Shown: one piece after another, positions 5,037 through 50,781 of the stretch
Position numbering within the stretch: position 1 is the first letter of the stretch
How the letters are laid out: every line of letters begins with the position of its first letter
Assembly (NCBI GenBank): GCA_001029755.1
Contig: CP011214.1
Coordinates: forward strand, 1,754-65,753
Origin: Candidatus Woesebacteria bacterium GW2011_GWF1_31_35
GTDB taxonomy: Bacteria > Patescibacteriota > Microgenomatia > UBA8517
Length of the DNA stretch: 64,000 nucleotides
Direction of reading: 5' to 3'
Position numbers and translations under genes: made by a program
The notes under the pieces: generated by a model
Database searches by the model: none
What the model was told of the DNA's origin: nothing
The model's input: only the letters and a program-made list of their open reading frames with translations

Positions 5037-6721
5037 TTAACTTCTATAATTCTAAATGCCGTATCCCTATTATTAAGATATTTAATTTCCTTAATTAGCC
5101 TAAACTCCTTTTCATCATTTGAGTCAGCTGGCGGAATACGAAGTGTATCTGCAACAAAAAGAGTTCCCCTATCTCCCCTATTTATAGACCAATCAATTGG
5201 ACCAAATTCAATATTGTCTAATTTTGTAATATAACCAACATCTCCAATGTACTCACTATTTACAAAACTTGTATTTTTTTGATATTTAGAAGGATCATAT
5301 TTTTGAAAAAATAGAAAGAAAATATATGGCTGTGCAAAACTTTGCTGAACAACAATTTTTTTGTAATTTCCTTGTATTGGTGTAATTGTCTCTACAACTT
5401 GTGAATAGCCATATGACCAAAGTTTGGAGTTGTGTGCTGAAACGTGTACAAAATAAGAATCTAAAAAGTAAGTTATGCTAACTAAATAAACCAAAAAGAC
5501 TATTGAGTAAAAATAAACTTTATATTTATTTTTGTTTATAAAGGTAATTAAACCACTAAGTCCAAATGTACAAATTATTATTAAAGGTATTGCCATATTA
5601 AAACTTCTAACTGCATGCACCTGATCACGTGACAAGACAGCAGGAAGAGGAGCTAATATTAGCCAAAAAAGAAAAAACAAATGTTCTTTCTTAAGCTTAT
5701 TTTTAAATATTTCAAAAAATCCTAAAATTAAAATTATTAAATCAGATAAAAGTAACATTCCTTGATAAGGTGCAGAATGCCTTAGATTTGAAAAATCTCC
5801 TTCGAAAAATAAAAACCTTCCTGAAAAATGATTAAACCAGCGTCCCATTATTCCCCGTTTAAAATTTAGATCTTCTGAATGGAATAGGTAATAACTTAAA
5901 CTTCCAATTTTCTCTTTTCCTTCATCAAGCATACTTTGTATGTATTCTTTAGGCCTTGGGTATGAAAAAACACTAAATACTTCAAGTCTTCCTGTTAAAC
6001 CAGTAAACATACTAAGAATTATTGGAGATGAAATTAATAGACCTAAAAGAAGCGATTGTGTTAAATATTTTTTTGGAAACTTAACTAAATCTTTAAAATA
6101 AAAAATTAATAAAAGTACTACCACCAAACCAGATGAAAGCTTTGCACCTTGGTAAGCTAAGAGTGTAAGAGCAAAGAAAAGAGAACTTATAATTAGGAAT
6201 TTATTCTTTTCTAGTGATTTAAGGAAAAAATAAATTCCTGCTAAAGTTAAAGTAAGTGACAAATTTACTTCCCACGCTCCACGAGAGAAATAAATAAGCC
6301 ATGGATTAAAAGCTCCTATAAAACCTGTAAATATGGCAAACTTTTTTCCAAAGAATCTATTTGCAATTAAATATATTAAATAAATTGAAATTACTCCAAA
6401 AATTGCAGAAGGTAAACGAACTGAAAATTCACTTAGACCTAAAACAGCAACAAATGGAACTGTCGTATAAATATATAGTCCAGGTTTATAATCCCCAAAT
6501 GATTTAAAAATTAAAGGCAAGGTTTTTCCATATTCATCTTTTCCTGTTTTCAAAATTGAATATGCGTTATACCCTAAGGAAGCTTCATCTGGAGTTAGAT
6601 GTGGAGGGATATTATCTAGGTTCCATACTCTAATAATTGCTGCCAATAAAATTATTAGCCACAATATATTTTTATTTAAAAGTTTAATTATTTTCATATA
6701 GTTCAAAGGCAACACTTCCAT
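5033..6721 (-). CDS. GT39/PMT/ArnT-like GT-C membrane glycosyltransferase (paralog 2)
   Basis: It carries TPDEASLGYNAYSILKTGKDEYGKTLPLIFKSFGDYKPGLYIY and the same C-terminal domain motif (QPYIFFLFFQKYDP). It overlaps the upstream gene by 4 bp. Confidence 0.8.
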   Translation of the reverse strand: MEVLPLNYMKIIKLLNKNILWLIILLAAIIRVWNLDNIPPHLTPDEASLGYNAYSILKTGKDEYGKTLPLIFKSFGDYKPGLYIYTTVPFVAVLGLSEFSVRLPSAIFGVISIYLIYLIANRFFGKKFAIFTGFIGAFNPWLIYFSRGAWEVNLSLTLTLAGIYFFLKSLEKNKFLIISSLFFALTLLAYQGAKLSSGLVVVLLLIFYFKDLVKFPKKYLTQSLLLGLLISSPIILSMFTGLTGRLEVFSVFSYPRPKEYIQSMLDEGKEKIGSLSYYLFHSEDLNFKRGIMGRWFNHFSGRFLFFEGDFSNLRHSAPYQGMLLLSDLIILILGFFEIFKNKLKKEHLFFLFWLILAPLPAVLSRDQVHAVRSFNMAIPLIIICTFGLSGLITFINKNKYKVYFYSIVFLVYLVSITYFLDSYFVHVSAHNSKLWSYGYSQVVETITPIQGNYKKIVVQQSFAQPYIFFLFFQKYDPSKYQKNTSFVNSEYIGDVGYITKLDNIEFGPIDWSINRGDRGTLFVADTLRIPPADSNDEKEFRLIKEIKYLNNRDTAFRIIEVK

Positions 6722-8360
6722 CCAAAAAATTAATTGTCTTTATTTTACTCCAATCTGCTGGAGCGTTTTTGGGACTTGTTACAAGAAGGCATTTTGCTTG
6801 CCTACAATCCACTATTCTTTTACTTTCTTGAATAAACTTATAACCTTCTTTAGGTATCTGCCAATCATTAACAAAATAGTATTTATCAAATCCATCAACC
6901 CAATACCAACCTGCTTGATAAAACCTATTTAAATTTTTATCATTCCTATACCAATTAGAATTAAATGCACTATAGAAAAGAATAAATTCATGCGGTTCTC
7001 CATATTTTTTAGTAATTATTATCTTTGCATAATTATCATTATTCTCTTTTATGTAACTAACTACTTCTAAATATCCATATTGCCAACTTTCGGAATATTT
7101 ATTTTTATAATCAGTAAAATATTTCATTAAATAATTTTCAAAAAATAAAAATAATATAACTACATATAAAAATATGAATAATAATCTATTTTTTCCTTTA
7201 ATTTTTTTAATAACATAGTTAACACCAAGCGAAGTTAAAATCATTGGTATTGGAAGCATAGTAATTGCACGTAATACATGTGGGTCTTCTCTAGTTAAAC
7301 TACTAGCAATTGGTCCTAATAAAATCCAAGATAAAAGTAAATAACTTTCTTTGGTTTTTAGTTTCAATAAATAAATAAACCCAATTATTAAAAATGGAAA
7401 ATTAATTAAATAAATAAGACCATTTTTTGGAAGACTAAATTGATAATTTGATCCACCTTCTAAAATCAAAAACTTCGGGGAAAAATGGCTAAAATAATTT
7501 TTAATAAATTCTTTCGAAAAATACGTAATTTTATTTGATAGTATTCTAGGGATTGGGTCAGGAGCCTTTATTTTTTTTCTTAATTCAATTATTTTATTTG
7601 TTGCCCCTTCATCTAATATTGCCACCTTAGAATACCTTGCAGATCCTGAAGAACTAACAAGTTGATAAAACATTGGAACAAAAAAAATTGCTAAGAAAAT
7701 TAGTATTTTTTTGGCTATAATTTTATTTCCTTCAAAAAAACCTTTAAATTCATTTTTATAAATTAATAATAAAGATAATAAAAATAACGGAGTAAAAATA
7801 CGATATGAGTTATATGTCCAAACAGTTAAGCTAAAGAAAAGCGTAGAAAATATTAAATACTTAACTTTTAAACTATTAATAAATTTAATAAGGAAATAAA
7901 CCCCTAAAATAAATAAGAATAAGGCTAAGTTAGCCTCAAAAGCAGGTCTTCCTAAAAAGAAAGTCCATGGTTCAATTGTAACCAAAAAAGCAGAAAACAA
8001 AGCTATCCTTTTATAACTTTTTACAAATTTAAGATTATCTTTTAAAAGTTCTACCATTAATAAATACGTTACCCAGATAGTTCCAATCCCAGCTAAAACT
8101 GAGGGTAATCTAACAGCAAAAGAATTAATTCCAAAGAAAAATTCTGAAATTGAAGTTAAATAAATATAAACAGGTAATTTAAAATCCCCATAAGCTTTAA
8201 AAATTAAAGGCATTATTTTCCCCCACTCATCTTTTCCTGAAGTTAGAATTGAAAAAGCATTATAACCATGACTAATTTCATCCCAATTTAAAGAAGGAGG
8301 GTTGGAATTTATAAACAAAAACCTTGTAACAACAGTTAAAATTAAAATTAAATAAATCAT
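6684..8360 (-). CDS. GT39/PMT/ArnT-like GT-C membrane glycosyltransferase (paralog 3)
   Basis: It carries NWDEISHGYNAFSILTSGKDEWGKIMPLIFKAYGDFKLPVYIY. It is polytopic. Confidence 0.8.
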   Translation of the reverse strand: MIYLILILTVVTRFLFINSNPPSLNWDEISHGYNAFSILTSGKDEWGKIMPLIFKAYGDFKLPVYIYLTSISEFFFGINSFAVRLPSVLAGIGTIWVTYLLMVELLKDNLKFVKSYKRIALFSAFLVTIEPWTFFLGRPAFEANLALFLFILGVYFLIKFINSLKVKYLIFSTLFFSLTVWTYNSYRIFTPLFLLSLLLIYKNEFKGFFEGNKIIAKKILIFLAIFFVPMFYQLVSSSGSARYSKVAILDEGATNKIIELRKKIKAPDPIPRILSNKITYFSKEFIKNYFSHFSPKFLILEGGSNYQFSLPKNGLIYLINFPFLIIGFIYLLKLKTKESYLLLSWILLGPIASSLTREDPHVLRAITMLPIPMILTSLGVNYVIKKIKGKNRLLFIFLYVVILFLFFENYLMKYFTDYKNKYSESWQYGYLEVVSYIKENNDNYAKIIITKKYGEPHEFILFYSAFNSNWYRNDKNLNRFYQAGWYWVDGFDKYYFVNDWQIPKEGYKFIQESKRIVDCRQAKCLLVTSPKNAPADWSKIKTINFLDGSVAFELYENN

Positions 8361-42064: not shown

Positions 42065-42274
42065 ATGGAAATTCCTAGGCATTGGAGACTAAAACAATCA
42101 AGGTACAATCTTTTGGGGGAAATGTGTCCCAATCCTGATTGCCAAGAATTTATATTTCCTCCTAGAGATGTCTGTCCAAACTGTAAAGGTGAGGCAAAAA
42201 TTAAACCTAATGAAATCAGTGGAGCAATATATGATAGAACTCTTAGATTAGCTGGTAGTACCAAGCAAGGCTAA
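42065..42274 (+). CDS. Short Zn-ribbon protein resembling the N-terminal part of DUF35 (thiolase/HMG-CoA-synthase-associated Zn-ribbon/OB-fold) proteins; probably truncated
   Basis: MEIPRHWRLKQSRYNLLGEMCPNPDCQEFIFPPRDVCPNCKG matches the DUF35_N pattern (PRFWR...RY.L.G.KC..C....FPPR..CP.C). The ORF stops about 25 aa later, before any OB-fold. The true start is an internal ATG of track ORF 41963..42274. Confidence 0.35.
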   Translation: MEIPRHWRLKQSRYNLLGEMCPNPDCQEFIFPPRDVCPNCKGEAKIKPNEISGAIYDRTLRLAGSTKQG

Positions 42275-43105
42275 ATTTAATTCTGATACTTGTTCATATA
42301 TTTTGTCTTCATCTTTTATATATTCATTATATTTAGTAATTATTTCTTTTACCCCAGATCTAACAACTTCTTTTGATAATAAAATTTCTTTAGAAGAAAT
42401 AAACGAATGGTCTTTGACCTTAAAACTTGAAAAATCATTTGAATTTAAAAAATTATCAGAAATTTCCAAATGATATACAGAAACTTTAATATCAGCGATA
42501 GAAAGATGCATAAAAGGCTTTGGATTTTCAGGAATAATCTCAGTTGGGATATTTTTATTAACTGCCAATTCTGAATATACTTCTTGTTGAAGCACTCTTA
42601 ATATTGACGTCTTTGGATCTTCACTATCACTTGAATAGGTCATTGGTAAAGTTTTAGATCCTGTAGGTTTTCCTAATTCTATCTTTGGTGGAGTTATATC
42701 CTCACCCATTAAGATACTGTTTTTCTGATTCTTAGGTGTAATTACTAAAGCTGTACCAAATCTTCTGGTTACTCCAGTTTTTACATTATGTAGGATTCTA
42801 TGCATTGTAGAAAGAGAAGTTTTAAATGATGGAGGAAGCTTTTTAAAAAGTCTTTCCATTGGAATTTGATTGTCTGAAAGAAGTGTTAAAAAAGTTAAAG
42901 TTTCAGATAATTTACTATTAGGTCCTGCTGATTTAATAATCCCCCATCTTTTAATTAAATGGTGCATTCCAGGATATGATATTGGTAAATCATAATTAGT
43001 AACCCTAAAAACTTCATCAACCGAACCATATTTAAGATAAAGTCTAATTATATTTTTGTAAAAATCATTTTCTCTTTCTCTAATTTCTGTTTCTTGAAAC
43101 ATCAT
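42248..43105 (-). CDS. Hypothetical protein
   Basis: It is a 285 aa soluble ORF in a consistent coding frame. No family was recognised. Confidence 0.4.
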   Translation of the reverse strand: MMFQETEIRERENDFYKNIIRLYLKYGSVDEVFRVTNYDLPISYPGMHHLIKRWGIIKSAGPNSKLSETLTFLTLLSDNQIPMERLFKKLPPSFKTSLSTMHRILHNVKTGVTRRFGTALVITPKNQKNSILMGEDITPPKIELGKPTGSKTLPMTYSSDSEDPKTSILRVLQQEVYSELAVNKNIPTEIIPENPKPFMHLSIADIKVSVYHLEISDNFLNSNDFSSFKVKDHSFISSKEILLSKEVVRSGVKEIITKYNEYIKDEDKIYEQVSELNLALLGTTS

Positions 43106-44944: not shown

Positions 44945-45856
44945 TTAAACTTTACTTCTTTTTATAAACTCATCAACCATTTCTCTCCAGGTTTTAAATT
45001 TAATTCCTAATTTTTCTTGAGTAATTTCAGTCTTTAAACCTCCAAGTCTTGAACGTGGAGTTCGTCCTTCTACTTTTAAAAATTCTTCCATTGATCCTTT
45101 TTGAACAACATTAGTAACTCCCCTAGCTTTTTCAAGTAAATAACTAACAAATTCAAATGGAGTTGTAGTATCAGATGAAACAACATGATAAATTCCAGTT
45201 TGTTTAATTTCGATAATTTTTTCTAATGCCGGAGTTAAATCGTCAATCAAAAGAGGTGTTAAAATTTGATCTGTAAAAATTGGGAATAATTTTCCTTCAT
45301 CAAAGAGTTTTAAATAACTTTTTGCGTAATCTAACTTCAAATCACAATTTTCTCCATAAAAAGGATATGCGATTCTAACAATTGCATACTTACATCCTGA
45401 ATTTCTAACTACAAACTCAGATCTATTTTTAGTCCATCCATACCAACCCATTTTTTCAGTTAATTTGTCAGGTGTTAATGATCTTTCGGAATATGGACCA
45501 GGATAATCAGAGGTTCCATTGAAAACAAAGTCAGTCGAAATTTGTATTAAAAATTTATTATATTTTTTACATGCTTTTGCTAAATTTTCAGGACCATCCA
45601 CATTTAATCTATAACAAAAACCATTTTCATCTCCTCTTTCTTTTTCAGCTACATCAACATTAGTAAAACCAGCAAAGTTAACAACTGCATCAAAATTATC
45701 TTTTTCCATTTCAAAAAAATCATTAACTATCTTTTCATCAGTTATGTCTAATTCAATTTCATTTGGAGCCACCTTTCTATTAGATAAAATAGATGAAGCA
45801 AATTTAGAACCCACTAAGCCGGAAGATCCAATTATAAGTAACTTTTTCATATTCAT
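44945..45856 (-). CDS. rmlD: dTDP-4-dehydrorhamnose reductase
   Basis: It carries an N-terminal LLIIGSSGLVGSKF Rossmann motif and the Y-x3-K motif YGWTK. It sits in an rml gene cluster. Confidence 0.75.
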   Translation of the reverse strand: MNMKKLLIIGSSGLVGSKFASSILSNRKVAPNEIELDITDEKIVNDFFEMEKDNFDAVVNFAGFTNVDVAEKERGDENGFCYRLNVDGPENLAKACKKYNKFLIQISTDFVFNGTSDYPGPYSERSLTPDKLTEKMGWYGWTKNRSEFVVRNSGCKYAIVRIAYPFYGENCDLKLDYAKSYLKLFDEGKLFPIFTDQILTPLLIDDLTPALEKIIEIKQTGIYHVVSSDTTTPFEFVSYLLEKARGVTNVVQKGSMEEFLKVEGRTPRSRLGGLKTEITQEKLGIKFKTWREMVDEFIKRSKV

Positions 45857-46431
45857 TTAAATTTATCTGGAAAAAGTTCTCTTAATTTAGGATTGTTTTG
45901 ATCACGTTCTGAAAGAATTGGGTTATCAACTGGCCATTTTATAGCAAGGTCTGGATCATCCCATGCAACCCCTTTGGCTTTTGCATCGTCCCAATATTCA
46001 TCAATTAAATAAAAATAATGCATCATCTCGTTCCCAAGTGTACAGATTGAATTACCAATTCCACCAGAAGGCAGGAATAATGCCTGCCTTGGGGAATCTT
46101 CTTTTGTATTATCAATTGTTATATATTCTACTTTTCCAAAAGTAGAAGATTCTGGTCTCAAATCCACAATTGGAGCATATAGAATTCCAGTTACAGGATA
46201 AATTAATTTATTCCAATCTTCACTATGAACTGCCTTAATTACTCCTGGTTTTATATAGGCATGTGTCCACTGGACAGGATTAAACTCAATGCCTGTTGCT
46301 GCCTTTAATTCTTCTTTATTATAAGGCTCATGAAGAAATCCTCGACTATCACCCAAGATTGGTCTTTGAATCAAAACAACCCCATCAATTGAAGTCTTGA
46401 TAATATGTTTCTCTGGATCAAATCTCATCAT
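45853..46431 (-). CDS. rmlC: dTDP-4-dehydrorhamnose 3,5-epimerase (cupin)
   Basis: It is a 192 aa RmlC-like cupin with RGFLHEPYN. It overlaps rmlD by 4 bp. Confidence 0.75.
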   Translation of the reverse strand: MMRFDPEKHIIKTSIDGVVLIQRPILGDSRGFLHEPYNKEELKAATGIEFNPVQWTHAYIKPGVIKAVHSEDWNKLIYPVTGILYAPIVDLRPESSTFGKVEYITIDNTKEDSPRQALFLPSGGIGNSICTLGNEMMHYFYLIDEYWDDAKAKGVAWDDPDLAIKWPVDNPILSERDQNNPKLRELFPDKFK

Positions 46432-46447
46432 ACTTATAAATATGATT

Positions 46448-47035
46448 TTAGTTTAAATTGGTGTTAATTTCAACGAGGTTATTAGTTTTTTCTAATAAAT
46501 TTTGAAAATATTCTTTACCATCATCAGTATTTTCCTCAGGTGCCCAACTGGCAAACTCCTTATCAGTTTCTGCTATATATCCACCCTTTGCCTGCCTTTT
46601 TGACTCCAATATTACAAATGGCTCATCAGATATGATAGTATGCCAAATATTTGGTCTTATTGTAACAATGTTTTTTCCCACTTCTGACAACTTAACAACT
46701 TTATTAACTTTTCCATCATCATCAAACATGACAACTGAAGCTTTTCCTTTTAATAGTCTAAAAGATTCTGTTTTTTCAAGCTCATTATGTTTATGGGGTC
46801 TAACATAGTTCTCGGTAGAAATTGCATTAATCATTAAGTGTTGTTCTGCCTTAAGTGAATCATGAATTCTAAAAATAAATCTTCCTCTTTCAGAAACCTT
46901 GGCAATTCCTAATGCTAAATTTGCTAAATCTTTTGAAAGATAATCGCCTTTGTGTGATTTAATATATTTATCTAAATCAACAGCAGAAGGTATTGATCCA
47001 TCAAAATCTTTTTTAATTGAATCCAGAGGTTCCAT
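46448..47035 (-). CDS. WbuC-like cupin-fold protein
   Basis: It is 195 aa with His-rich cupin-like motifs (PHKHNE...). It lies within a nucleotide-sugar operon. Confidence 0.4.
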   Translation of the reverse strand: MEPLDSIKKDFDGSIPSAVDLDKYIKSHKGDYLSKDLANLALGIAKVSERGRFIFRIHDSLKAEQHLMINAISTENYVRPHKHNELEKTESFRLLKGKASVVMFDDDGKVNKVVKLSEVGKNIVTIRPNIWHTIISDEPFVILESKRQAKGGYIAETDKEFASWAPEENTDDGKEYFQNLLEKTNNLVEINTNLN

Positions 47036-47051
47036 TTTTAAATTAAAGAAA

Positions 47052-47930
47052 TTATTTACCAGAACGAATTAAGCCTAATTCCTCACGAGCAAAATTAACT
47101 GATTCAGCAACCATTGCATCAGGAGTTCTAAAAACATCTATCCGAACTGCCATTTTGCCAAAAAGTTTCTCACCTTCCTGTTTTATTTCATCCCCCACTC
47201 TTTCAAATTTTGAAAAACCTACTCCTACCAAACTAGCAACACTTGCCCTATTAAACGATTTTTTATCAAAAACAGGTTTATCTATGGCTATTCCAGCTTC
47301 TTCCATTGCCTCTCTTTTTGCAACATCTTCAGTTGTATCTCCTACAAATTGTGCAAAACCACCAGGTACTGTTAAAAACCACATACCTGTTTTCAATGCT
47401 TTGTATTCTTCAATTTCTTTAGGATCAGTTAGATTATCTGGAATGATTATTTTTGCATCCCAAGCAGCTGGTCTCCATTGCCAAAAACAATGGACATAAT
47501 AGTCATCATTAATTTTTTCAATTGGGGCAACTAAAGATCCTGGAGTTGCAATACCTGTTCTTGTGTCTAACTTTCCATCTTGCCACAAAAGACCATCATT
47601 AAGATAGTTGATAAGATTTCCCTCAGTATCATACTCTACAACGGCGTAGTGTTGTACTGAACCAAAGTTTGGATTTTTTAATCCAGAGTTATCAATATTC
47701 CAACCAATACCCTTTTTCTTTTCATTTTCAGAATTATGATTGTCAATAAAATCATTAATCCAATCCTTTATTAATGTAACTGGTAGTAAAGTTTGCCTTG
47801 GTCTTTCTATTGGCTCGGAAGGAAGAACATCATAATATGAAACCTCCCCAATTTTAAAATTAGGCTCAATAGAAATCGTTTTCCTATTTTCAGAACTATA
47901 TTTTTCAATAGGTAATTTAACTTCTACCAT
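47052..47930 (-). CDS. Nudix hydrolase with a roughly 170 aa N-terminal domain
   Basis: It has a Nudix-box-like segment GGFAQFVGDTTEDVAKREAMEEAGIAI (REx2EExGI). Confidence 0.6.
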   Translation of the reverse strand: MVEVKLPIEKYSSENRKTISIEPNFKIGEVSYYDVLPSEPIERPRQTLLPVTLIKDWINDFIDNHNSENEKKKGIGWNIDNSGLKNPNFGSVQHYAVVEYDTEGNLINYLNDGLLWQDGKLDTRTGIATPGSLVAPIEKINDDYYVHCFWQWRPAAWDAKIIIPDNLTDPKEIEEYKALKTGMWFLTVPGGFAQFVGDTTEDVAKREAMEEAGIAIDKPVFDKKSFNRASVASLVGVGFSKFERVGDEIKQEGEKLFGKMAVRIDVFRTPDAMVAESVNFAREELGLIRSGK

Positions 47931-47986
47931 ATTTGTGTATTTTACTTAAAAAAATGAATCTAGTCAAGACTACAGGGTGTATTTTA

Positions 47987-49903
47987 TTAAAGTTTCAACC
48001 CTTTAATTTCCATGAGATTAAGGCGTGTTAATGCCGAAAGAAAGTATGCATCATCACATTTATTAATTAAATCAGAAAGTTTTTCAATAGGCCAAAGAAC
48101 TATTCCCTCATCTTCTTCAAATTTATCTCCTTTTTTGACATCTGTATAAAGTTCATTTGAAAGATCAACAACAATTGCATATAAATTAGGTTTATTGTTT
48201 GTCATACCGGAATCAGGGTTGAGTCTTCCTAAAGAAATTATTTGATCTAAAACAGCATCATTATTCGCAACACTTAAATTTAAATCTTTTTGTAAAGACC
48301 TAACTATAAAATCCAAAACTGACTCATTTAGGGTTGGAAGTCCTCCTGGAAGAGTGTATTCAATTGCTCCTGTTGGAAATTTTAATTCTCTTTGTGTCGC
48401 CAAATGTGTAATTTCTCCCCTTCTTTTAATCAAAACTAATAGTTTTGCACCTGATTTGGGTCCCCAACCCCAAGAATAGTACCCTTCCATTCTTTTCTCT
48501 TTCTTGGTATTTTCAACTTCAAACCAAGATCCAATACCATATATCCCATATTTTGGATCTCCATGTTCAATTTTTTCTAGGCTTAGGATAGTGTCCCCAT
48601 CTAAATGGTCTTCTCTTCCTGCTAAATCTTCAACATAACCAAAAGTTGAAGGGTTAATTCCTAGAGATTTAATTTCCTTTTTAATTTTCTCTGAACTATT
48701 TTGGTACCATTTTTTACTTTCCAGATTTCTAATAACAATTTCATATCTAATTAGATTTTGTTCAACAAAATGTTTCTCGGTATCAATTTTTCCTACAGAA
48801 CTAGCTACACCCTTGCTATCATCATTTTTTTCAACTTTTCCGAAAACAAATTTAGTTTTACCCGATTCTCTATCAAGAGAGATATAGGCTGAAATAGTCT
48901 TTGAAGAATCCATTATCATTGCTTTCCTTTTAAGAAGAGGTCTCCACCAATCTTGGTTTTCCCTATACCATTTGATTGTTTCTTTTAACCCTTCATTAAA
49001 ATCATCTCTTCCAATTTTTGGCTTCCAACCTAATTCTTCTATAATTTTTGTAGCATCAATTGCGTATCTTCTATCATTACTATGGCGATCAGAAACGTTA
49101 CGAATCATATTTTCATTAGCACCATATAGATTAACTATCTTTTTAGCAATATAACCATTACTTCTGTCATTATTAGATCCCACTAAATATGTTTCTCCCT
49201 TTTTACCTTTTTCTAAAATTAATTCAATTGCAGAGGAATGATCTCTGGTATGAATCCAATCTCTGACATTTCTACCATCTCCATGAAGTGGAACTTTAAT
49301 ATTGTCAATTAGATTACAAATAACTATTGGTGCAAACTTTTCAGGAAATTGAAATGGTCCATAATTATTTGAACAGTTTGAAATTGTAATATACATTTTA
49401 GTTTTTTCATAAAAATCCATAACAATCCTATCTGCTTCAGCTTTTGACAATGCATATAAATTATCAGGTCTTGGAGAATATGGAGTTTTTTCAGTAAATT
49501 TAAGATCTGAATCTAAAGGAAGTTCTCCGTAAACTTCATCAGTTGATATTTGATGGAACCTGGTAACTCCTGCTTTTTCTGCTTCTTCCAGTAAAGTTAA
49601 TGTTCCATGAACATTTGTTTGCCAATAAGTTGAAGGATCAAAAACAGATCTATCAACATGACTTTCAGCAGCAAAATGAACCAAAGTGTCAACCCCCTTT
49701 AAGCTTTCTGAAACTATTTTTCTGTTATTGATATCTCCTTCAATAAACTCAATTTTTTTTGAAATTGGTCGAAGTGTTTCAAAATTTCCAGCATAGGTTA
49801 ACGAATCCAATACTTTAATTTTATCTTTAGGATGTTTTTCTAGCCAATAATAGGTAAAATTTGAACCAATGAATCCTGCACCCCCTGTTATTAAAATATT
49901 CAT
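47987..49903 (-). CDS. rmlB: dTDP-glucose 4,6-dehydratase fused to a roughly 300 aa C-terminal degenerate Nudix-like domain
   Basis: The N-terminal 330 aa are canonical RmlB (MNILITGGAGFIGSNF...YxxxK...). The C-terminal extension contains KLLVLIKRRGEITHLATQRELKFPTGAIEYTLPGGLPTLNESVLDFIVRSLQKDLNL, a Nudix-box pattern with RE changed to RS and EE changed to KD. Confidence 0.75.
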   Translation of the reverse strand: MNILITGGAGFIGSNFTYYWLEKHPKDKIKVLDSLTYAGNFETLRPISKKIEFIEGDINNRKIVSESLKGVDTLVHFAAESHVDRSVFDPSTYWQTNVHGTLTLLEEAEKAGVTRFHQISTDEVYGELPLDSDLKFTEKTPYSPRPDNLYALSKAEADRIVMDFYEKTKMYITISNCSNNYGPFQFPEKFAPIVICNLIDNIKVPLHGDGRNVRDWIHTRDHSSAIELILEKGKKGETYLVGSNNDRSNGYIAKKIVNLYGANENMIRNVSDRHSNDRRYAIDATKIIEELGWKPKIGRDDFNEGLKETIKWYRENQDWWRPLLKRKAMIMDSSKTISAYISLDRESGKTKFVFGKVEKNDDSKGVASSVGKIDTEKHFVEQNLIRYEIVIRNLESKKWYQNSSEKIKKEIKSLGINPSTFGYVEDLAGREDHLDGDTILSLEKIEHGDPKYGIYGIGSWFEVENTKKEKRMEGYYSWGWGPKSGAKLLVLIKRRGEITHLATQRELKFPTGAIEYTLPGGLPTLNESVLDFIVRSLQKDLNLSVANNDAVLDQIISLGRLNPDSGMTNNKPNLYAIVVDLSNELYTDVKKGDKFEEDEGIVLWPIEKLSDLINKCDDAYFLSALTRLNLMEIKGLKL

Positions 49904-50781
49904 TTTAAATCGAGAGTTTTTAGATACTCTCTAAAATCACCATTTAGATCTTTGTGTTTTAGAGCGAACTCAACAACAGTTTTTAGATATTCCAATTTAT
50001 TACCTGTGTCATAGTAAACTCCGTTTTCAATTTCACAAGCATATATTGGAATTCCTTGTTTTCTTAAGACATTAATTGCATCAACTAACCATATTTCTCC
50101 ACCCTTGGAAGGTTTTAGGTCTCTTAATGCTGGAAAAATTTCGGGAGGTAAAATATAGGCTCCATGTGTAGCTAAATTGGAAGGAGCTTCTTCAGGAAGT
50201 GGTTTTTCAATTATTTCTTTAATCTTAAAGACTCTATCCTCAACTGGTTCCAAGTCTGCAATGCCATATCTTGATAGTCTATCTTTAGACTCAATCCTAA
50301 CCCCAGAGATAACAACTCCTCCATATTTTTCATATACTTTCATCATTTGTTGTAGTCTTGGAGGATTAGAACTAATAAATTCATCGCCCCAAAGGACTGC
50401 AAAACTTTCCTTCCCTATAACAGACTCAGCAGATAAAACTGGGGTTCCATTACCATAAAGGCCTTTCTGTCTTACATATATAAAATTAGCCATTTCAGCA
50501 ATTCTTTTAACTTCTTCCAAGAGCTTTTCTTTGCCACCTTGAATAAGATTATTAATTAAATCGGCATTTGGCATATCGAAATGATCTTCAATTGCTCTTT
50601 TTGAAGAACCAGTAACAATTACAATGTCTTTAATTCCACTCTCAACAGCTTCTTCAACAACATATTGAATAACAGGTTTATCTACGATTGGAAGCATTTC
50701 CTTTGGCATAGCTTTAGTTTGGGGTAGAAATCTAGTTCCAAAGCCTGCTGCGGGTATTACTGCCTTTGTTACCTTTTTCAT
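49900..50781 (-). CDS. galU: Sugar-1-phosphate nucleotidyltransferase of the GalU (UTP-glucose-1-phosphate uridylyltransferase) type
   Basis: KAVIPAAGFGTRFLPQTKAMPKEMLPIVDKPVIQYVVEEAVESGIKDIVIVTG matches the GalU signature rather than short-form RmlA. Confidence 0.7.
   Translation of the reverse strand: MKKVTKAVIPAAGFGTRFLPQTKAMPKEMLPIVDKPVIQYVVEEAVESGIKDIVIVTGSSKRAIEDHFDMPNADLINNLIQGGKEKLLEEVKRIAEMANFIYVRQKGLYGNGTPVLSAESVIGKESFAVLWGDEFISSNPPRLQQMMKVYEKYGGVVISGVRIESKDRLSRYGIADLEPVEDRVFKIKEIIEKPLPEEAPSNLATHGAYILPPEIFPALRDLKPSKGGEIWLVDAINVLRKQGIPIYACEIENGVYYDTGNKLEYLKTVVEFALKHKDLNGDFREYLKTLDLK

What the first reader, a model, noticed from the sequence alone, without database searches (positions are those of the whole stretch)
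44945..50781. dTDP-rhamnose operon with an RmlB-Nudix-like fusion, a second stand-alone Nudix, a WbuC cupin and a GalU-type (not RmlA-type) nucleotidyltransferase
The minus-strand operon reads galU-type NTase, then rmlB fused to a roughly 300 aa C-terminal domain, then a Nudix protein with an N-terminal extension, then a WbuC-like cupin, then rmlC, then rmlD. The fused domain's Nudix box is degenerate (GGLPTLNESVLDFIVRSLQKDL, with RE changed to RS and EE changed to KD) and is likely a non-catalytic nucleotide-sugar binding module. The stand-alone Nudix keeps REAMEEAGI. Nudix enzymes that hydrolyse NDP-sugars, embedded in and fused to an NDP-sugar biosynthesis operon, suggest built-in regulation or salvage of the sugar-nucleotide pool. 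No short-form RmlA is present. The first-step enzyme looks like GalU, which raises the question of whether the pathway runs from UDP-glucose or the GalU-like enzyme has TTP specificity.
Basis: partly seen in the sequence, partly recalled or inferred. Interest (0 to 1): 0.6.

Follow-up and report, generated by a model that had tools for sequence, protein, structure and literature searches.

The report
RmlB fused to degenerate Nudix domain
In a group of ultra-small (CPR) bacteria, the second enzyme of the rhamnose-sugar pathway carries a built-in, apparently disabled nucleotide-sugar hydrolase domain, and wherever this domain occurs the usual first enzyme (RmlA) is missing from the gene cluster, which suggests the domain has taken over part of RmlA's job.

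Summary
The window comes from a Candidatus Woesebacteria genome. Its minus strand encodes GalU-type NTase, RmlB plus a 314 aa C-terminal domain (CTD), a stand-alone Nudix, a WbuC cupin, RmlC and RmlD.

The CTD has no Pfam or PDB sequence hit of its own. Its predicted fold and a family profile (NUDT5, E=4e-7) place it among ADP-sugar/ADP-ribose pyrophosphatase-type Nudix proteins. About 100 stand-alone homologue clusters keep a canonical Nudix box. All 33 RmlB fusions found have lost the "RE" glutamate, and the window's clade also has EE changed to KD. The family's other motifs are conserved.

New finding: the fusion is the core of a cassette conserved across at least 25 distinct Woesebacteria lineages. 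0 of 31 fused loci have an RmlA-type gene nearby, against 33 of 35 unfused loci. Both exceptions carry CTD-family genes. GalU is present in both cassette types.

The stand-alone Nudix and WbuC are accessory genes in a variable slot.

Most likely the CTD is a non-hydrolytic nucleotide-sugar-binding module that compensates for the loss of RmlA. This mechanism is inferred, not shown. New variant of a known kind. Interest 0.65.

The parts
49900..50781 (-). GalU-type UTP--glucose-1-phosphate uridylyltransferase (293 aa). Its stop overlaps the rmlB start.
   Evidence: TIGR01099 311.5 bits against rmlA_long 114.6 and rmlA 59.9. The top 16 PDB sequence matches are all GalU.
48932..49903 (-). RmlB domain of the fusion (aa 1-324): NDP-glucose 4,6-dehydratase with intact GxxGxxG, TDE and YxxxK motifs.
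   Evidence: TIGR01181 381.3 bits (cut-off 365.1). The 10 best PDB matches are all dTDP-glucose 4,6-dehydratases. Motifs are conserved in 22 fusions.
48596..48931 (-). Linker of the fusion (aa 325-436). It holds a conserved hairpin-like stretch (TISAYISLDRESGKTKFVFGK) and a helical segment (WY..S..I..EI..L....FGYVEDLA.R) that the stand-alone homologues share.
   Evidence: Alignments A1 and A3. In the AF2 model, CTD residues 1-59 (fusion aa 325-383) have pLDDT below 50, and helices span CTD residues 52-105 (fusion aa 376-429).
47990..48595 (-). Nudix-like domain proper (aa 437-638): a beta N-subdomain plus a Nudix fold of the ADP-sugar pyrophosphatase (NUDT5/ADPRase/YffH) type.
   Evidence: Foldseek top 50. 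Family profile against NUDT5, E=4e-7. 128 representative homologues found.
48275..48343 (-). Degenerate Nudix box G521-x5-E527-x7-R535-S536-L-Q-K539-D540-L-N542-L.
   Evidence: Equivalent NUDT5 residues are E103, R111, E112, E115, E116 and G118.
48194..48217 (-). Family hallmark loop P563-D-S-G-M-T-N-N570. It aligns with the NUDT5 D133-P-G-L-S-N loop and is conserved in both catalytic and degenerate members.
47052..47930 (-). Stand-alone Nudix protein (292 aa) of ADPRase-like fold with an N-terminal extension. It is an accessory gene in the variable slot.
   Evidence: AF2 pLDDT 75, pTM 0.73. Foldseek top hits are Klebsiella and E. coli ADPRase and YffH, from E 3e-6. The family has 26 clusters.
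47289..47363 (-). Nudix box of the stand-alone protein: G190-G-F-A-Q-F-V-G-D198-x7-R206-E207-A-M-E210-E211-A-G213-I. The catalytic glutamates are kept, and the first half is one residue longer than the consensus.
   Evidence: Alignment A2: E207 and E211 are invariant, E210 is at least 90% conserved.
46448..47035 (-). WbuC-family cupin (195 aa), an accessory gene in the variable slot.
   Evidence: TIGR04366 100.1 bits (cut-off 42). Present in the slot in only a minority of the fusion loci (window, L004, L007, L008, L035).
45853..46431 (-). RmlC-type NDP-4-keto-6-deoxyhexose 3,5-epimerase (192 aa).
   Evidence: PF00908 120.9 bits. TIGR01221 104.5 bits, below the equivalog cut-off of 155.75.
44945..45856 (-). 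RmlD-type NDP-4-dehydrorhamnose reductase (303 aa).
   Evidence: PF04321 158.9 bits. TIGR01214 148.9 bits, below the equivalog cut-off of 224.

Best explanation
The locus is a 6-deoxyhexose (L-rhamnose-type) nucleotide-sugar operon of a Woesebacterium. Its conserved core is GalU, RmlB~CTD, RmlC and RmlD.

The CTD descends from an ADP-sugar/NDP-sugar pyrophosphatase-type Nudix enzyme. It has lost two of the Nudix-box glutamates needed for metal-dependent hydrolysis: the NUDT5 E112 equivalent is Ser, and the E115 equivalent is Lys. It has kept the family's other conserved motifs (SW.GPKSGAK, KFPTG, D.GMTNN, DD.YFL).

It therefore most likely binds a (d)NDP-hexose without hydrolysing it. It would serve RmlB as a nucleotide-sugar sensing or hand-over module, in a cassette that has dispensed with RmlA. 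RmlA is the enzyme that normally makes dTDP-glucose and is feedback-inhibited by dTDP-rhamnose. NDP-glucose would then come from the GalU-type enzyme encoded immediately upstream.

The stand-alone Nudix, whose catalytic box is intact, is an accessory NDP-sugar/ADP-ribose-type pyrophosphatase. Together with the WbuC cupin it occupies a variable slot that in sister genomes holds other Nudix genes and an IMPase-like phosphatase, which points to turnover or salvage of the nucleotide-sugar pool.

Shown: the domain identities, the degenerate box, the strict conservation of the fusion, and the RmlA/CTD complementarity.
Inferred: binding without hydrolysis, the regulatory or hand-over role, and GalU as the source of NDP-glucose.
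For: Fold and homology:
- All 50 top Foldseek hits are ADPRase/YffH/NUDT5/NDP-sugar hydrolases.
- The exhaustive profile search finds 128 representative homologues. Most are stand-alone proteins of about 250 aa that share the CTD motifs but have an intact [RKT]E[LI]xEE[LF]G box. Three of nine tested pass Pfam NUDIX.
- The family profile hits NUDT5 at E=4e-7 with the Nudix box in register.

Degeneration is specific and fixed:
- 0 of 33 fusions keep the RE glutamate. 33 of 33 keep the Gx5E glutamate, the Arg and the final acidic residue. The window's clade has a conserved R-S-[LIF]-x-K-D.
- More than 60 columns are invariant across 11 family members at 46-83% identity. This indicates purifying selection on a non-hydrolytic function.

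Fusion is real and conserved:
- 40 contigs for the identical protein.
- One ORF in 33 loci, giving 25 clusters at 90% identity and 13 at 80%.
- The RmlB catalytic motifs are intact.

Complementarity with RmlA:
- 0 of 31 fused loci against 33 of 35 unfused loci have an RmlA-type gene within 6 kb. Both exceptions carry CTD-family sequences: L001 is a frameshifted fusion, and L032 has two adjacent degenerate paralogues.
- The unfused cassettes in the same syntenic slot have RmlA directly upstream of RmlB.

Independent unfused links between the CTD family and rml or dT metabolism:
- L031 reads RmlB, IMPase-like gene, P0064.
- L032 has the CTD-like genes next to an NT5C deoxynucleotidase and rmlDCB.
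- L028 has a neighbouring FdtA/WbuC-like cupin.

Precedents for Nudix domains that lost hydrolysis but bind ligand: TRPM2 NUDT9-H (PMC6461439, PMC4974056). The AraR Nudix-type regulator also appears among the profile hits.
Against: - No binding or activity data exist.
- The CTD model is of modest quality (pLDDT 61, pTM 0.45; TM-scores 0.3 and 0.47), so no ligand site can be read from it.
- Deep-branching fusions keep EE, DE or DD and could retain some catalysis.
- GalU also sits at this position in RmlA-containing cassettes, and L032 has no NTase at all within 7-8 kb. The source of NDP-glucose is therefore not established.
- An RmlA elsewhere in the genome is not excluded. The only evidence is weak: none of the 120 best long-form RmlA clusters lies on a contig that carries a fusion.
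- The complementarity rests on few independent evolutionary events, perhaps two. The Fisher p-values are not phylogenetically corrected.
Confidence: 0.48

Rival explanations
1. Catalytic replacement of RmlA. The degenerate Nudix domain is a repurposed catalyst that makes RmlB's substrate. It could transfer glucose-1-phosphate from UDP-glucose (made by GalU) onto dTMP, giving dTDP-glucose plus UMP, or it could carry out an RmlA-like reaction. The product would be channelled to the fused dehydratase.
For: - RmlA and the CTD family are perfectly complementary (0 of 31 against 33 of 35, both exceptions CTD-positive). Two alternative cassettes occupy one syntenic slot.
- The fusion places the domain on the enzyme that consumes NDP-glucose, and galU overlaps rmlB.
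- Loss of water-activating, metal-binding glutamates with retention of the ligand motifs is what a change from hydrolase to transferase would need.
- CTD-family genes neighbour dTMP and deoxynucleoside salvage genes: NT5C in L032 and Nuc_deoxyrib_tr in L025.
- The RmlB domain still looks dTDP-type.
Against: - To my knowledge no Nudix-fold nucleotidyl or sugar-phosphate transferase is known.
- The metal ligands that such chemistry would probably also need are the ones that were lost.
- GalU is equally present in RmlA-containing cassettes, and L032 lacks GalU nearby.
- The complementarity reflects few independent events.
- An RmlA elsewhere in the genome is not excluded.
Confidence: 0.15
2. The CTD is still an enzyme acting on a pathway metabolite with non-canonical Nudix chemistry. 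Examples would be a Gmm-like glycosyl hydrolase attacking C1, a residual NDP-sugar pyrophosphatase, or an EvaA-like 2,3-dehydratase acting on the RmlB product.
For: - Sugar 2,3-dehydratases such as EvaA belong to the Nudix superfamily and use dTDP-4-keto-6-deoxyglucose, the RmlB product (PMC8987622).
- The CTD keeps many invariant polar residues (H447, H500, K483, K487, K508, D564, N569, N570, E596, D617, D618 in fusion numbering) and always keeps one acidic box residue.
- Deep-branching fusions keep EE, DE or DD.
Against: - There is no PF03559 (hexose 2,3-dehydratase) hit, even at E up to 1.
- The CTD has one Nudix domain, whereas EvaA has two.
- No EvaA structure appears among the 50 best fold hits.
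- The conserved core has no 3-ketoreductase to process a 2,3-dehydration product.
- A hydrolase fused to the enzyme that makes its own substrate would create a futile cycle.
Confidence: 0.15
3. The CTD is only a structural or oligomerisation scaffold. ADPRase-type Nudix proteins are obligate dimers, and the CTD may recruit RmlC, RmlD or the stand-alone Nudix. RmlA is simply encoded elsewhere, or GalU is promiscuous, so the complementarity with RmlA is a by-product of a single cassette replacement.
For: - The two cassette types differ throughout: RmlB is 47-53% and RmlC 47-71% identical between them, which fits a single ancestral swap.
- P0058 is a tandem of a degenerate and an intact CTD-like domain, and L032 has tandem paralogues. 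Both suggest that dimer partners matter.
- The stand-alone Nudix family and CTD-family members co-occur in the window, L007, L032 and L034.
Against: - The motifs shared with catalytic homologues, which are probably ligand contacts, are more conserved than a pure scaffold would need.
- L032 is an independent case of 'no RmlA, CTD-family present'.
- Most fusion loci have no stand-alone Nudix nearby.
Confidence: 0.15
4. The fusion is an artefact: a mis-assembly or a missed stop codon joining rmlB to a separate downstream gene.
For: - In L001 the two parts are called as separate genes.
- P0013 and P0014 are 369 aa RmlBs that end shortly after the linker.
Against: - The identical 638 aa protein is seen on 40 contigs from several sources.
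- A single uninterrupted ORF of 629-650 aa occurs in 33 loci from independent assemblies.
- The L001 split is a local duplication and frameshift inside an otherwise continuous reading frame.
Confidence: 0.01

Closest known systems
ADP-sugar / ADP-ribose / NDP-sugar pyrophosphatases of the Nudix superfamily (human NUDT5, E. coli NudF/ADPRase, E. coli YffH/NudK GDP-mannose hydrolase, Bdellovibrio NDP-sugar hydrolase)
   Same: Same two-part fold, a beta N-subdomain followed by the Nudix sandwich. These are the best structural matches for both the CTD and the stand-alone Nudix. The family profile aligns to NUDT5 through the Nudix box and the D-P-G-L-S-N loop.
   Different: The CTD lacks the equivalents of NUDT5 E112 and E115, has an extra linker and helical segment of about 110 aa, and is covalently fused to an SDR dehydratase. 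The stand-alone protein has an N-terminal extension of about 90 aa and an extra residue in the first half of the box.
TRPM2 NUDT9-H domain (a Nudix-derived ligand sensor)
   Same: An ADPRase-type Nudix domain fused to the C-terminus of another protein. Hydrolysis was lost through Nudix-box substitutions, ligand binding was retained, and older lineages keep a more intact box (PMC6461439, PMC4974056). Here the deep-branching fusions keep EE, DE or DD while the window's clade has KD.
   Different: It is eukaryotic, the partner is an ion channel and the ligand is ADP-ribose. In the present case neither ligand binding nor loss of activity has been tested.
GDP-mannose mannosyl hydrolase Gmm/WcaH (NudD) in the E. 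coli colanic-acid gmd-fcl-gmm-manC cluster (from my own knowledge)
   Same: A Nudix gene embedded in an NDP-6-deoxyhexose biosynthesis operon, thought to tune the nucleotide-sugar pool. It is the nearest precedent for the stand-alone Nudix in this operon.
   Different: It belongs to a different Nudix subfamily and a different sugar pathway (GDP-fucose). It is not fused to the dehydratase, and the first-step enzyme is not lost. No NCBIfam model other than ADP-ribose diphosphatase/YffH matched the stand-alone protein at E up to 0.1.
EvaA-type NDP-hexose 2,3-dehydratases (Nudix superfamily)
   Same: Nudix-fold proteins without hydrolase chemistry that act on dTDP-4-keto-6-deoxyglucose, the RmlB product. 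One of their two domains is an inactive remnant that still binds dTDP-rhamnose (PMC8987622).
   Different: They have a double-Nudix architecture and match PF03559. The CTD shows neither. They also occur in antibiotic deoxysugar clusters together with 3-ketoreductases, which are absent here.
RmlA (glucose-1-phosphate thymidylyltransferase), allosterically inhibited by dTDP-L-rhamnose (from my own knowledge)
   Same: It is the function that is missing wherever the CTD family is present. The CTD may supply RmlA's regulatory role or, less probably, its catalytic role.
   Different: There is no homology. RmlA has a Rossmann-like NTP-transferase fold (PF00483), whereas the CTD is Nudix-like.
Nudix-type transcription regulators (NrtR, Bacteroides AraR)
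   Same: Non-catalytic Nudix domains that sense a sugar or an ADP-ribose ligand. AraR (5bs6) is hit by the CTD-family profile at E=4e-4.
   Different: They are fused to a winged-helix DNA-binding domain, not to an enzyme.

Membership tests
Nudix superfamily (PF00293): C-terminal domain of the fusion | Nudix alpha/beta/alpha fold | tested here: met
   All 50 best Foldseek PDB hits are Nudix proteins, E 9e-7 to 1.5e-4. The model quality is modest (pLDDT 61). Transitive sequence homology supports the call independently.
Nudix superfamily (PF00293): C-terminal domain of the fusion | Nudix box GX5EX7REUXEEXGU with the catalytic glutamates | tested here: not met
   The box reads G521-x5-E527-x7-R535-S-L-Q-K-D540-L-N-L. 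The RE Glu is lost in 33 of 33 fusions, and the first Glu of EE is lost in 30 of 33.
Nudix superfamily (PF00293): C-terminal domain of the fusion | Score above Pfam's gathering threshold | tested here: not met
   No PF00293 hit at E up to 1. The stand-alone homologues P0062, P0161 and P0165 do pass, at 23.2, 24.4 and 27.7 bits against 21.1.
Nudix superfamily (PF00293): C-terminal domain of the fusion | Hydrolysis of a nucleoside diphosphate linked to X | not testable with these tools
   This needs an enzyme assay.
Nudix superfamily (PF00293): stand-alone 292 aa protein | Nudix fold and a Nudix box with REUXEE | tested here: met
   AF2 pLDDT 75. Foldseek top hits are ADPRases and YffH. R206-E207-A-M-E210-E211-A-G213 is conserved in the family. 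The Pfam score of 19.6 bits is just under the 21.1 threshold.
ADP-sugar/ADP-ribose pyrophosphatase subfamily (NUDT5/NudF/YffH) | N-terminal beta subdomain plus Nudix domain; a post-box loop and a downstream acidic residue used as catalytic base | tested here: inconclusive
   Fold hits and the profile alignment to NUDT5 residues 59-163 support subfamily-level similarity. The near-invariant family Glu (E596 in 'GDKFEED') may correspond to NUDT5 E166, but that lies just beyond the aligned stretch. Equivalence of the catalytic base, and dimer formation, could not be tested.
dTDP-glucose 4,6-dehydratase RmlB (TIGR01181) | Equivalog score above cut-off; NAD-binding GxxGxxG; catalytic T/D/E and YxxxK | tested here: met
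   381.3 bits against 365.1. Motifs are intact in 22 fusions. The 10 best PDB relatives are all dTDP-glucose dehydratases. Unfused CPR RmlBs score 456-465 bits, so the fused one is more divergent. Nucleotide specificity (dTDP or UDP) was not testable.
GalU (TIGR01099) | Equivalog score above cut-off; full-length similarity to characterised GalU enzymes | tested here: inconclusive
   311.5 bits, just below the 326.8 cut-off. The top 16 PDB matches are all GalU, aligned over the full length. UTP versus dTTP use was not testable.
RmlA, short (TIGR01207) or long (TIGR01208) form | Equivalog-level similarity | tested here: not met
   59.9 and 114.6 bits against cut-offs of 360.65 and 320.25. PDB RmlA matches are limited to the N-terminal ~55 aa.
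WbuC-family cupin (TIGR04366) | Score above cut-off | tested here: met
   100.1 bits against 42.
RmlC (TIGR01221 / PF00908) and RmlD (TIGR01214 / PF04321) | Family-level and equivalog-level scores | tested here: inconclusive
   The Pfam domains are clearly met (120.9 and 158.9 bits). The NCBIfam equivalog cut-offs are not reached (104.5 against 155.75, and 148.9 against 224).
NDP-hexose 2,3-dehydratase (EvaA/TylX3; PF03559) | PF03559 match and a tandem double-Nudix architecture | tested here: not met
   No PF03559 hit for the CTD at E up to 1, or for the stand-alone protein at E up to 0.1. The model has a single Nudix domain.

The most novel reading that the evidence does not exclude
The degenerate Nudix domain is not a passive binder. 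It is a Nudix fold repurposed from hydrolase to transferase, and it supplies RmlB with its substrate in lineages that have lost RmlA. For example, it could move glucose-1-phosphate from UDP-glucose (made by the adjacent GalU) onto dTMP, giving dTDP-glucose that is handed directly to the fused dehydratase. This would be a new enzymatic route into the dTDP-sugar pool and a new chemistry for the Nudix fold. It would also suit organisms with minimal nucleotide metabolism.
Probability: 0.15. Interest if true: 0.9.

Novelty: new variant of a known kind. Interest (0 to 1): 0.65.

Why it matters
dTDP-L-rhamnose synthesis (RmlA-D) is one of the best-studied nucleotide-sugar pathways and is treated as invariant in bacteria.

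This work finds a whole lineage of CPR bacteria (Woesebacteria) in which the rml cluster lacks RmlA. In its place the cluster carries a conserved Nudix-derived domain with a degenerate catalytic box, welded to RmlB. The same syntenic slot in sister lineages holds a canonical RmlA plus RmlB.

If the domain is an end-product sensor, it is a new way of putting feedback control on the pathway, and a bacterial parallel to the TRPM2 NUDT9-H story. If it makes the substrate, it is new Nudix chemistry and a new entry into dTDP-sugars.

In either case it affects how 'complete' rhamnose pathways are scored in metabolic reconstructions of CPR genomes. It also provides a small, well-defined pair of proteins (RmlB~CTD and GalU) that can be tested directly in vitro.

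The co-occurrence of several Nudix families, an IMPase-like phosphatase and a deoxynucleotidase around rml genes also suggests that these nucleotide-poor organisms actively recycle nucleotide sugars.

Tried and rejected
1. Direct sequence identification of the CTD failed. Pfam, NCBIfam and phmmer against PDB, and a profile of the 11 close relatives against PDB, all gave nothing. Only the wider family profile (A3) reached NUDT5.
2. Paralogy between the CTD and the stand-alone Nudix is marginal: blastp E=0.024 and hhalign E=0.009 with probability 4%. They share a fold class, but I do not claim close paralogy.
3. 'Stand-alone CTD genes' in the close family (P0003, P0005, P0009) turned out to be frameshifted or truncated calls of fusions.
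4. The EvaA-type 2,3-dehydratase idea: no PF03559 signal, no double domain and no 3-ketoreductase partner. I kept it only as part of a low-probability rival.
5. The 285 aa ORF at 42248-43105 looked by eye like it had a degenerate Nudix box. hhalign against A2 gave E=0.35 and Pfam gave nothing, so I dropped it.
6. The search for RmlA elsewhere in this genome, using the 'longest_contig = 826104' signature, found no such hit among the 120 listed clusters. Since 6,971 clusters matched, this is only weak evidence of absence.
8. The promoter and terminator scan was uninformative: 30 promoter-like sites found against 29.7 expected.
9. The L028 cupin and the window's WbuC show no pairwise similarity. 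The L028 cupin gives only a weak TIGR04366 match.

Full report
1. WHAT IS IN THE SEQUENCE

The window has about 29% G+C. Its proteins match records of Candidatus Woesebacteria bacterium (RIFOXYC1_FULL_31_51 / GW2011 series), a member of the Candidate Phyla Radiation. Identical proteins lie on a contig of 826,104 bp.

- NTase, 49900-50781
- a 638 aa protein, 47987-49903
- a 292 aa protein, 47052-47930
- a 195 aa protein, 46448-47035
- a 192 aa protein, 45853-46431
- a 303 aa protein, 44945-45856

They overlap or are separated by at most 56 bp. No terminator-like site lies between them on the coding strand, and promoter-like matches are at chance level.

HMM scans give these identities:
- GalU: TIGR01099 311.5 bits, just under the 326.8 cut-off. 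For comparison, rmlA_long scores 114.6 and rmlA 59.9.
- RmlB: TIGR01181 381.3 bits, above the 365.1 cut-off, over aa 2-323.
- The 292 aa protein: a weak Nudix match, PF00293 19.6 bits against 21.1, covering the box only.
- WbuC cupin: TIGR04366 100.1 bits against 42.
- RmlC: PF00908 120.9 bits.
- RmlD: PF04321 158.9 bits.

Against PDB sequences, the NTase's 16 best matches are all GalU enzymes aligned over the full length (262-174 bits). RmlA-type enzymes score 65 bits or less and align only over the N-terminal ~55 residues. The RmlB domain's ten best matches are all dTDP-glucose 4,6-dehydratases. No second NTP-transferase gene exists in the 64 kb window.

2. THE C-TERMINAL DOMAIN (CTD) IS A NUDIX DOMAIN OF THE ADP-SUGAR PYROPHOSPHATASE TYPE

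Residues 325-638 have no Pfam, NCBIfam or PDB sequence match on their own. A word-indexed search of 5.8 billion clusters found only 14 relatives.

An AlphaFold2 model built on these relatives is of modest quality (pLDDT 61, pTM 0.45). Even so, all 50 best Foldseek hits in the PDB are ADP-ribose/NDP-sugar pyrophosphatase-type Nudix proteins: NudE, YffH GDP-mannose hydrolase, NUDT5, the Klebsiella and E. coli ADPRases, and the Bdellovibrio NDP-sugar hydrolase, at E 9e-7 to 1.5e-4.

Sequence evidence supports this independently.
- An exhaustive HMM search of 1.84 billion representatives found 128 homologues, 100 of them below 1e-10. Most are stand-alone proteins of about 250 aa.
- These share the CTD's hallmark motifs (WF..S...Q..L, SW..GP.SGAKG, KFATG, D.GMTNN, DD.YFL). 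Most carry a canonical Nudix box such as R-E-L-E-E-E-F-G or R-E-I-E-E-E-L-G.
- Three of nine tested pass Pfam's NUDIX threshold.
- A profile of fused plus stand-alone members hits human NUDT5 at E=4e-7, with the Nudix box and the following D-P-G-L-S-N loop in register.

That alignment gives residue equivalences. The roles assigned to the NUDT5 residues come from my memory of the NUDT5 literature.

NUDT5 residue | Window CTD | State
G97 | G521 | kept
E103 | E527 | kept
R111 | R535 | kept
E112 (metal ligand) | S536 | lost
E115 | K539 | lost
E116 (metal ligand) | D540 | conservative change
G118 | N542 | changed
D133-PGLSN loop | D564-SGMTNN | conserved as the family hallmark

3. THE DEGENERATION IS SPECIFIC, FIXED AND GRADED

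Across all 33 RmlB~CTD fusions recovered:
- none keeps the glutamate of 'RE' (it is always R-S or R-K);
- all keep the Gx5E glutamate, the arginine and the last acidic residue;
- the first residue of 'EE' is K in 23, R in 1, D in 4, E in 3, N in 1 and M in 1.

The deep-branching fusions (44-46% CTD identity) read R-K-L-E-E-E-L-G, or have DE, DD or ED. The window's clade has a conserved R-S-[LIF]-x-K-D-L.

Outside the box the domain is strongly conserved. More than 60 columns are invariant among 11 sequences at 46-83% identity. The RmlB catalytic motifs (GxxGxxG, [S/T]DE, YxxxK) are intact in every fusion examined. This is the signature of a domain that is under selection for something other than canonical hydrolysis, not of a decaying domain.

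4. THE FUSION IS REAL AND IS THE CORE OF A CONSERVED CASSETTE

The identical 638 aa protein occurs on 40 contigs from NCBI, JGI, ENA and Logan assemblies.

A scan of one genome per GTDB species found the CTD in 21 genomes. Most are labelled Woesebacteria, Microgenomates or Patescibacteria. A few MAGs are titled only 'bacterium', and five are titled 'uncultured Gammaproteobacteria', but all share the same synteny. In every one it forms a single ORF of 629-644 aa with RmlB.

The surrounding block is conserved: SDR - CAP-domain protein - GalU - (RNaseH-like gene) - RmlB~CTD - [variable slot] - RmlC - RmlD - trmD (opposite strand) - GT2/GtrA. A metagenome scan added 11 more fusions. The 33 fusions form 28, 25 and 13 clusters at 95, 90 and 80% identity.

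Apparent 'split' versions are frameshifted or truncated calls. In L001 a short local duplication shifts the frame inside an otherwise continuous gene.

5. THE STAND-ALONE NUDIX AND WbuC ARE ACCESSORY GENES

The stand-alone protein belongs to a small family of 26 clusters. Its model is better (pLDDT 75, pTM 0.73), and it also matches ADPRases and YffH (from E 3e-6). Its REUXEE glutamates are conserved (E207 and E211 invariant, E210 at least 90%), so it is probably an active pyrophosphatase.

It is not a fixed member of the operon. Most fusion loci have nothing between rmlB~CTD and rmlC. Those with an insert carry different cargo:
- the window: this Nudix plus WbuC;
- L007: a 27%-identical relative, an MFS transporter and WbuC;
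- L004: a 191 aa protein of unknown function, a different 251 aa Nudix (box N-E-L-S-E-E-M-G, a distant member of the CTD superfamily), a weak IMPase/FBPase-like protein and WbuC;
- L008: a homologue of that 251 aa Nudix, an unrelated 298 aa protein of unknown function and WbuC;
- L005: unrelated genes.

Outside the fusion loci, the family is rml-linked in L003 (between galU and rmlA) and in L032 (divergent from rmlB). It is not linked in four other contexts. The association between Nudix genes and rml genes is therefore recurrent and involves several Nudix families.

6. THE NEW SIGNAL: THE CTD FAMILY AND RmlA ARE COMPLEMENTARY

The same syntenic slot exists in two versions.
- Type I, as in the window: GalU-(RNaseH-like)-RmlB~CTD-...-RmlC-RmlD-trmD.
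- Type II (L003, L046, L055, L058, L061 and others): GalU-RNaseH-like-RmlA-RmlB-RmlC-RmlD-trmD.

In type II the RmlB is plain, 335-340 aa and 47-53% identical to the fused one. The RmlA is either long-form (TIGR01208 318 bits) or a roughly 245 aa RmlA-type enzyme (TIGR01207 216-251 bits).

rmlB type | RmlA-type gene within 6 kb | none
RmlB~CTD fusion | 0 | 31
unfused RmlB | 33 | 2

The two exceptions are L001 and L032. L001 is the frameshifted fusion. L032 is an unrelated rmlB-C-D operon flanked by two tandem stand-alone CTD-family paralogues, both with degenerate boxes, together with an NT5C-type deoxynucleotidase and a relative of the stand-alone Nudix.

Fisher's exact p is 1.6e-16 for all loci and 1.5e-7 within the syntenic context. 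These values overstate the evidence, because the loci are related and probably represent only about two independent events.

GalU is present in both cassette types, so its presence does not by itself explain the loss of RmlA.

A search with a Woesebacterial long-form RmlA listed 120 of its 6,971 matching clusters. None lies on a contig whose length equals that of a fusion-bearing contig, including the 826 kb, 778 kb, 1.08 Mb and 438 kb contigs. This is weak evidence against an RmlA elsewhere in those genomes.

Further unfused links between the CTD family and this chemistry:
- L031 reads RmlB (TIGR01181 456 bits), an IMPase-family phosphatase, then P0064, which has an intact box.
- In L028, P0059 is followed by an FdtA/WbuC-like cupin.
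- In L025, P0068 lies two genes from a nucleoside deoxyribosyltransferase.

7. HOW IT MOST LIKELY WORKS

Established background, from my own knowledge:
- RmlA makes dTDP-glucose and is the feedback-controlled step, being allosterically inhibited by dTDP-L-rhamnose.
- RmlB is a homodimer.
- ADPRase-type Nudix proteins are domain-swapped dimers whose sites bind an NDP-sugar.
- Losing Nudix-box glutamates abolishes hydrolysis but need not abolish binding. TRPM2 NUDT9-H is the documented example (PMC6461439, PMC4974056).

Best explanation (confidence about 0.5). The CTD is a pseudo-hydrolase that binds a (d)NDP-hexose and gives RmlB a sensing or hand-over function. It does so in a cassette where RmlA has been lost and NDP-glucose comes from the GalU-type enzyme, which would either be promiscuous for dTTP or feed a UDP-based pathway. 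The fused RmlB domain is more divergent from canonical RmlB (381 bits against 456-465 for unfused CPR RmlBs). That leaves room for an altered nucleotide preference.

Rivals:
- The CTD catalytically replaces RmlA, for example by UDP-glucose + dTMP giving dTDP-glucose + UMP (0.15). This is attractive because of the complementarity and the fusion to the enzyme that consumes the product. It has no precedent for the fold.
- The CTD still catalyses a non-canonical reaction on a pathway metabolite, Gmm-like or EvaA-like (0.15). No PF03559 signal, a single domain and the lack of a 3-ketoreductase partner argue against the EvaA version (PMC8987622).
- The CTD is a scaffold only, with RmlA encoded elsewhere (0.15).
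- The fusion is an artefact (refuted).

8. COMPARISON WITH WHAT IS KNOWN, AND NOVELTY

By fold and ancestry the CTD is a Nudix-superfamily domain of the NUDT5/ADPRase/YffH branch. It fails the family's defining catalytic signature and Pfam's threshold, so I describe it as Nudix-derived rather than as a Nudix hydrolase.

Nudix genes inside NDP-sugar operons are known (Gmm/WcaH in the GDP-fucose/colanic-acid cluster). Non-catalytic Nudix sensor domains are known (TRPM2 NUDT9-H, NrtR, AraR). Nudix-fold enzymes acting on the RmlB product are known (EvaA).

Full-text searches for Nudix with RmlB, dTDP-rhamnose or CPR rhamnose pathways found no description of an RmlB-Nudix fusion or of an RmlA-less rml cassette. 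The CPR literature simply scores dTDP-rhamnose synthesis as conserved in these classes (PMC9166423).

I rate it a new variant of a known kind: a new domain architecture and a new family-level pseudo-Nudix, with a comparative-genomic pattern that makes a specific hypothesis testable.

Interest is 0.65. A nucleotide-sugar specialist would be surprised by a conserved RmlA-less rml cassette with a Nudix-derived domain on RmlB. The mechanism is still inferred, and a trivial explanation (a promiscuous GalU or a distal RmlA) remains open.

Noticed in passing
window 3378-40116 (minus strand): A long co-directional array with at least 10 paralogous membrane proteins of about 480-570 aa matching PMT/PMT_2 (GT-C, ArnT-like glycosyltransferases). 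GT2 genes and a DHH/DHHA1 protein are interspersed. This is an unusually large glycosyltransferase expansion for a genome of about 0.8 Mb.
   Followed up: partly
L032:1946-2716 and L032:2709-3500; NT5C at 3505-4050; rmlD-C-B at 4047-6520 (minus strand); Nudix at 7001-7723: An unfused rmlBCD operon with no NTase within 7-8 kb. It is flanked by two tandem stand-alone CTD-family paralogues with degenerate Nudix boxes, a 5'(3')-deoxyribonucleotidase-like gene, and a relative of the window's stand-alone Nudix.
   Followed up: partly
P0058 (571 aa): A single protein with two tandem CTD-like domains. The first has a degenerate box (E-N-S-V-C-E-Q-L-G) and the second a near-canonical one (K-V-E-A-Q-E-E-L-G). 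This suggests that pseudo/active pairs occur within the family.
   Followed up: no
P0013 and P0014 (369 aa RmlBs): RmlB proteins that keep only the first ~45 residues of the extension (…SAYISLDRESGKTKFVFGKIEKPVKKDKVAFD) and then end. Either the Nudix-like part was lost secondarily or the conserved hairpin has its own role on RmlB.
   Followed up: no
L001:7850-8000: In this relative the fusion is interrupted by a short local duplication and frameshift (…GLKETVNW / EQWLEKTVEWYKNNQDWW…), so gene callers report two genes. It could be an assembly error or a genuine split.
   Followed up: yes
window 49900-50781 compared with L004-L007: The window's GalU is 86% identical to that of L004 but only 58-59% identical to those of L005-L007. 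The RmlB~CTD of L005-L007 is nonetheless about 80-83% identical to the window's. The galU allele seems to have been exchanged independently of the neighbouring fusion gene.
   Followed up: no
L004:6561-9134, L008:5780-7773, L034:5230-5982: The variable slot, and one non-rml locus, carry a further Nudix family of about 250 aa (box N-E-L-S-E-E-M-G). It is a distant member of the CTD superfamily (HMM E 1e-15 to 1e-7). In L004 it lies next to a weak IMPase/FBPase-like gene, and in L034 next to the stand-alone Nudix family.
   Followed up: partly
L016:6142-9399: A second deoxysugar gene set lies directly downstream of the fusion: an NTase that by its N-terminal sequence resembles glucose-1-phosphate cytidylyltransferases (my reading of the sequence, not scanned), a 363 aa dehydratase-like SDR, and RmlC-like and RmlD-like genes. 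GT2 genes follow.
   Followed up: no
window 42248-43105 (minus strand): A 285 aa ORF with no family match. One stretch (…SEDPKTSILRVLQQEVYSEL…) looks by eye like a degenerate Nudix box, but hhalign against the stand-alone Nudix family gave E=0.35.
   Followed up: yes
window 47939-47967 (minus strand): The best internal promoter-like match of the region (TTGACT-17-TAAAAT, 10 of 12) lies in the 56 bp gap just upstream of the stand-alone Nudix. This would fit an inserted module that brought its own promoter, but promoter-like sites overall are at chance frequency.
   Followed up: no
L003:7466-7948 and 7 fusion loci (e.g. L008:3024-3530): A roughly 160 aa PF04308 (RNaseH_like/DUF458) gene sits between galU and the rml genes in many loci of both cassette types. 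It is absent from the window.
   Followed up: no
L046:8227-8973, L053:1028-1753, L057:8240-8998: Some unfused CPR cassettes use a truncated RmlA-type enzyme of about 245 aa that covers only positions 1-235 of the 286-position TIGR01207 model. It lacks the C-terminal part of canonical RmlA.
   Followed up: partly
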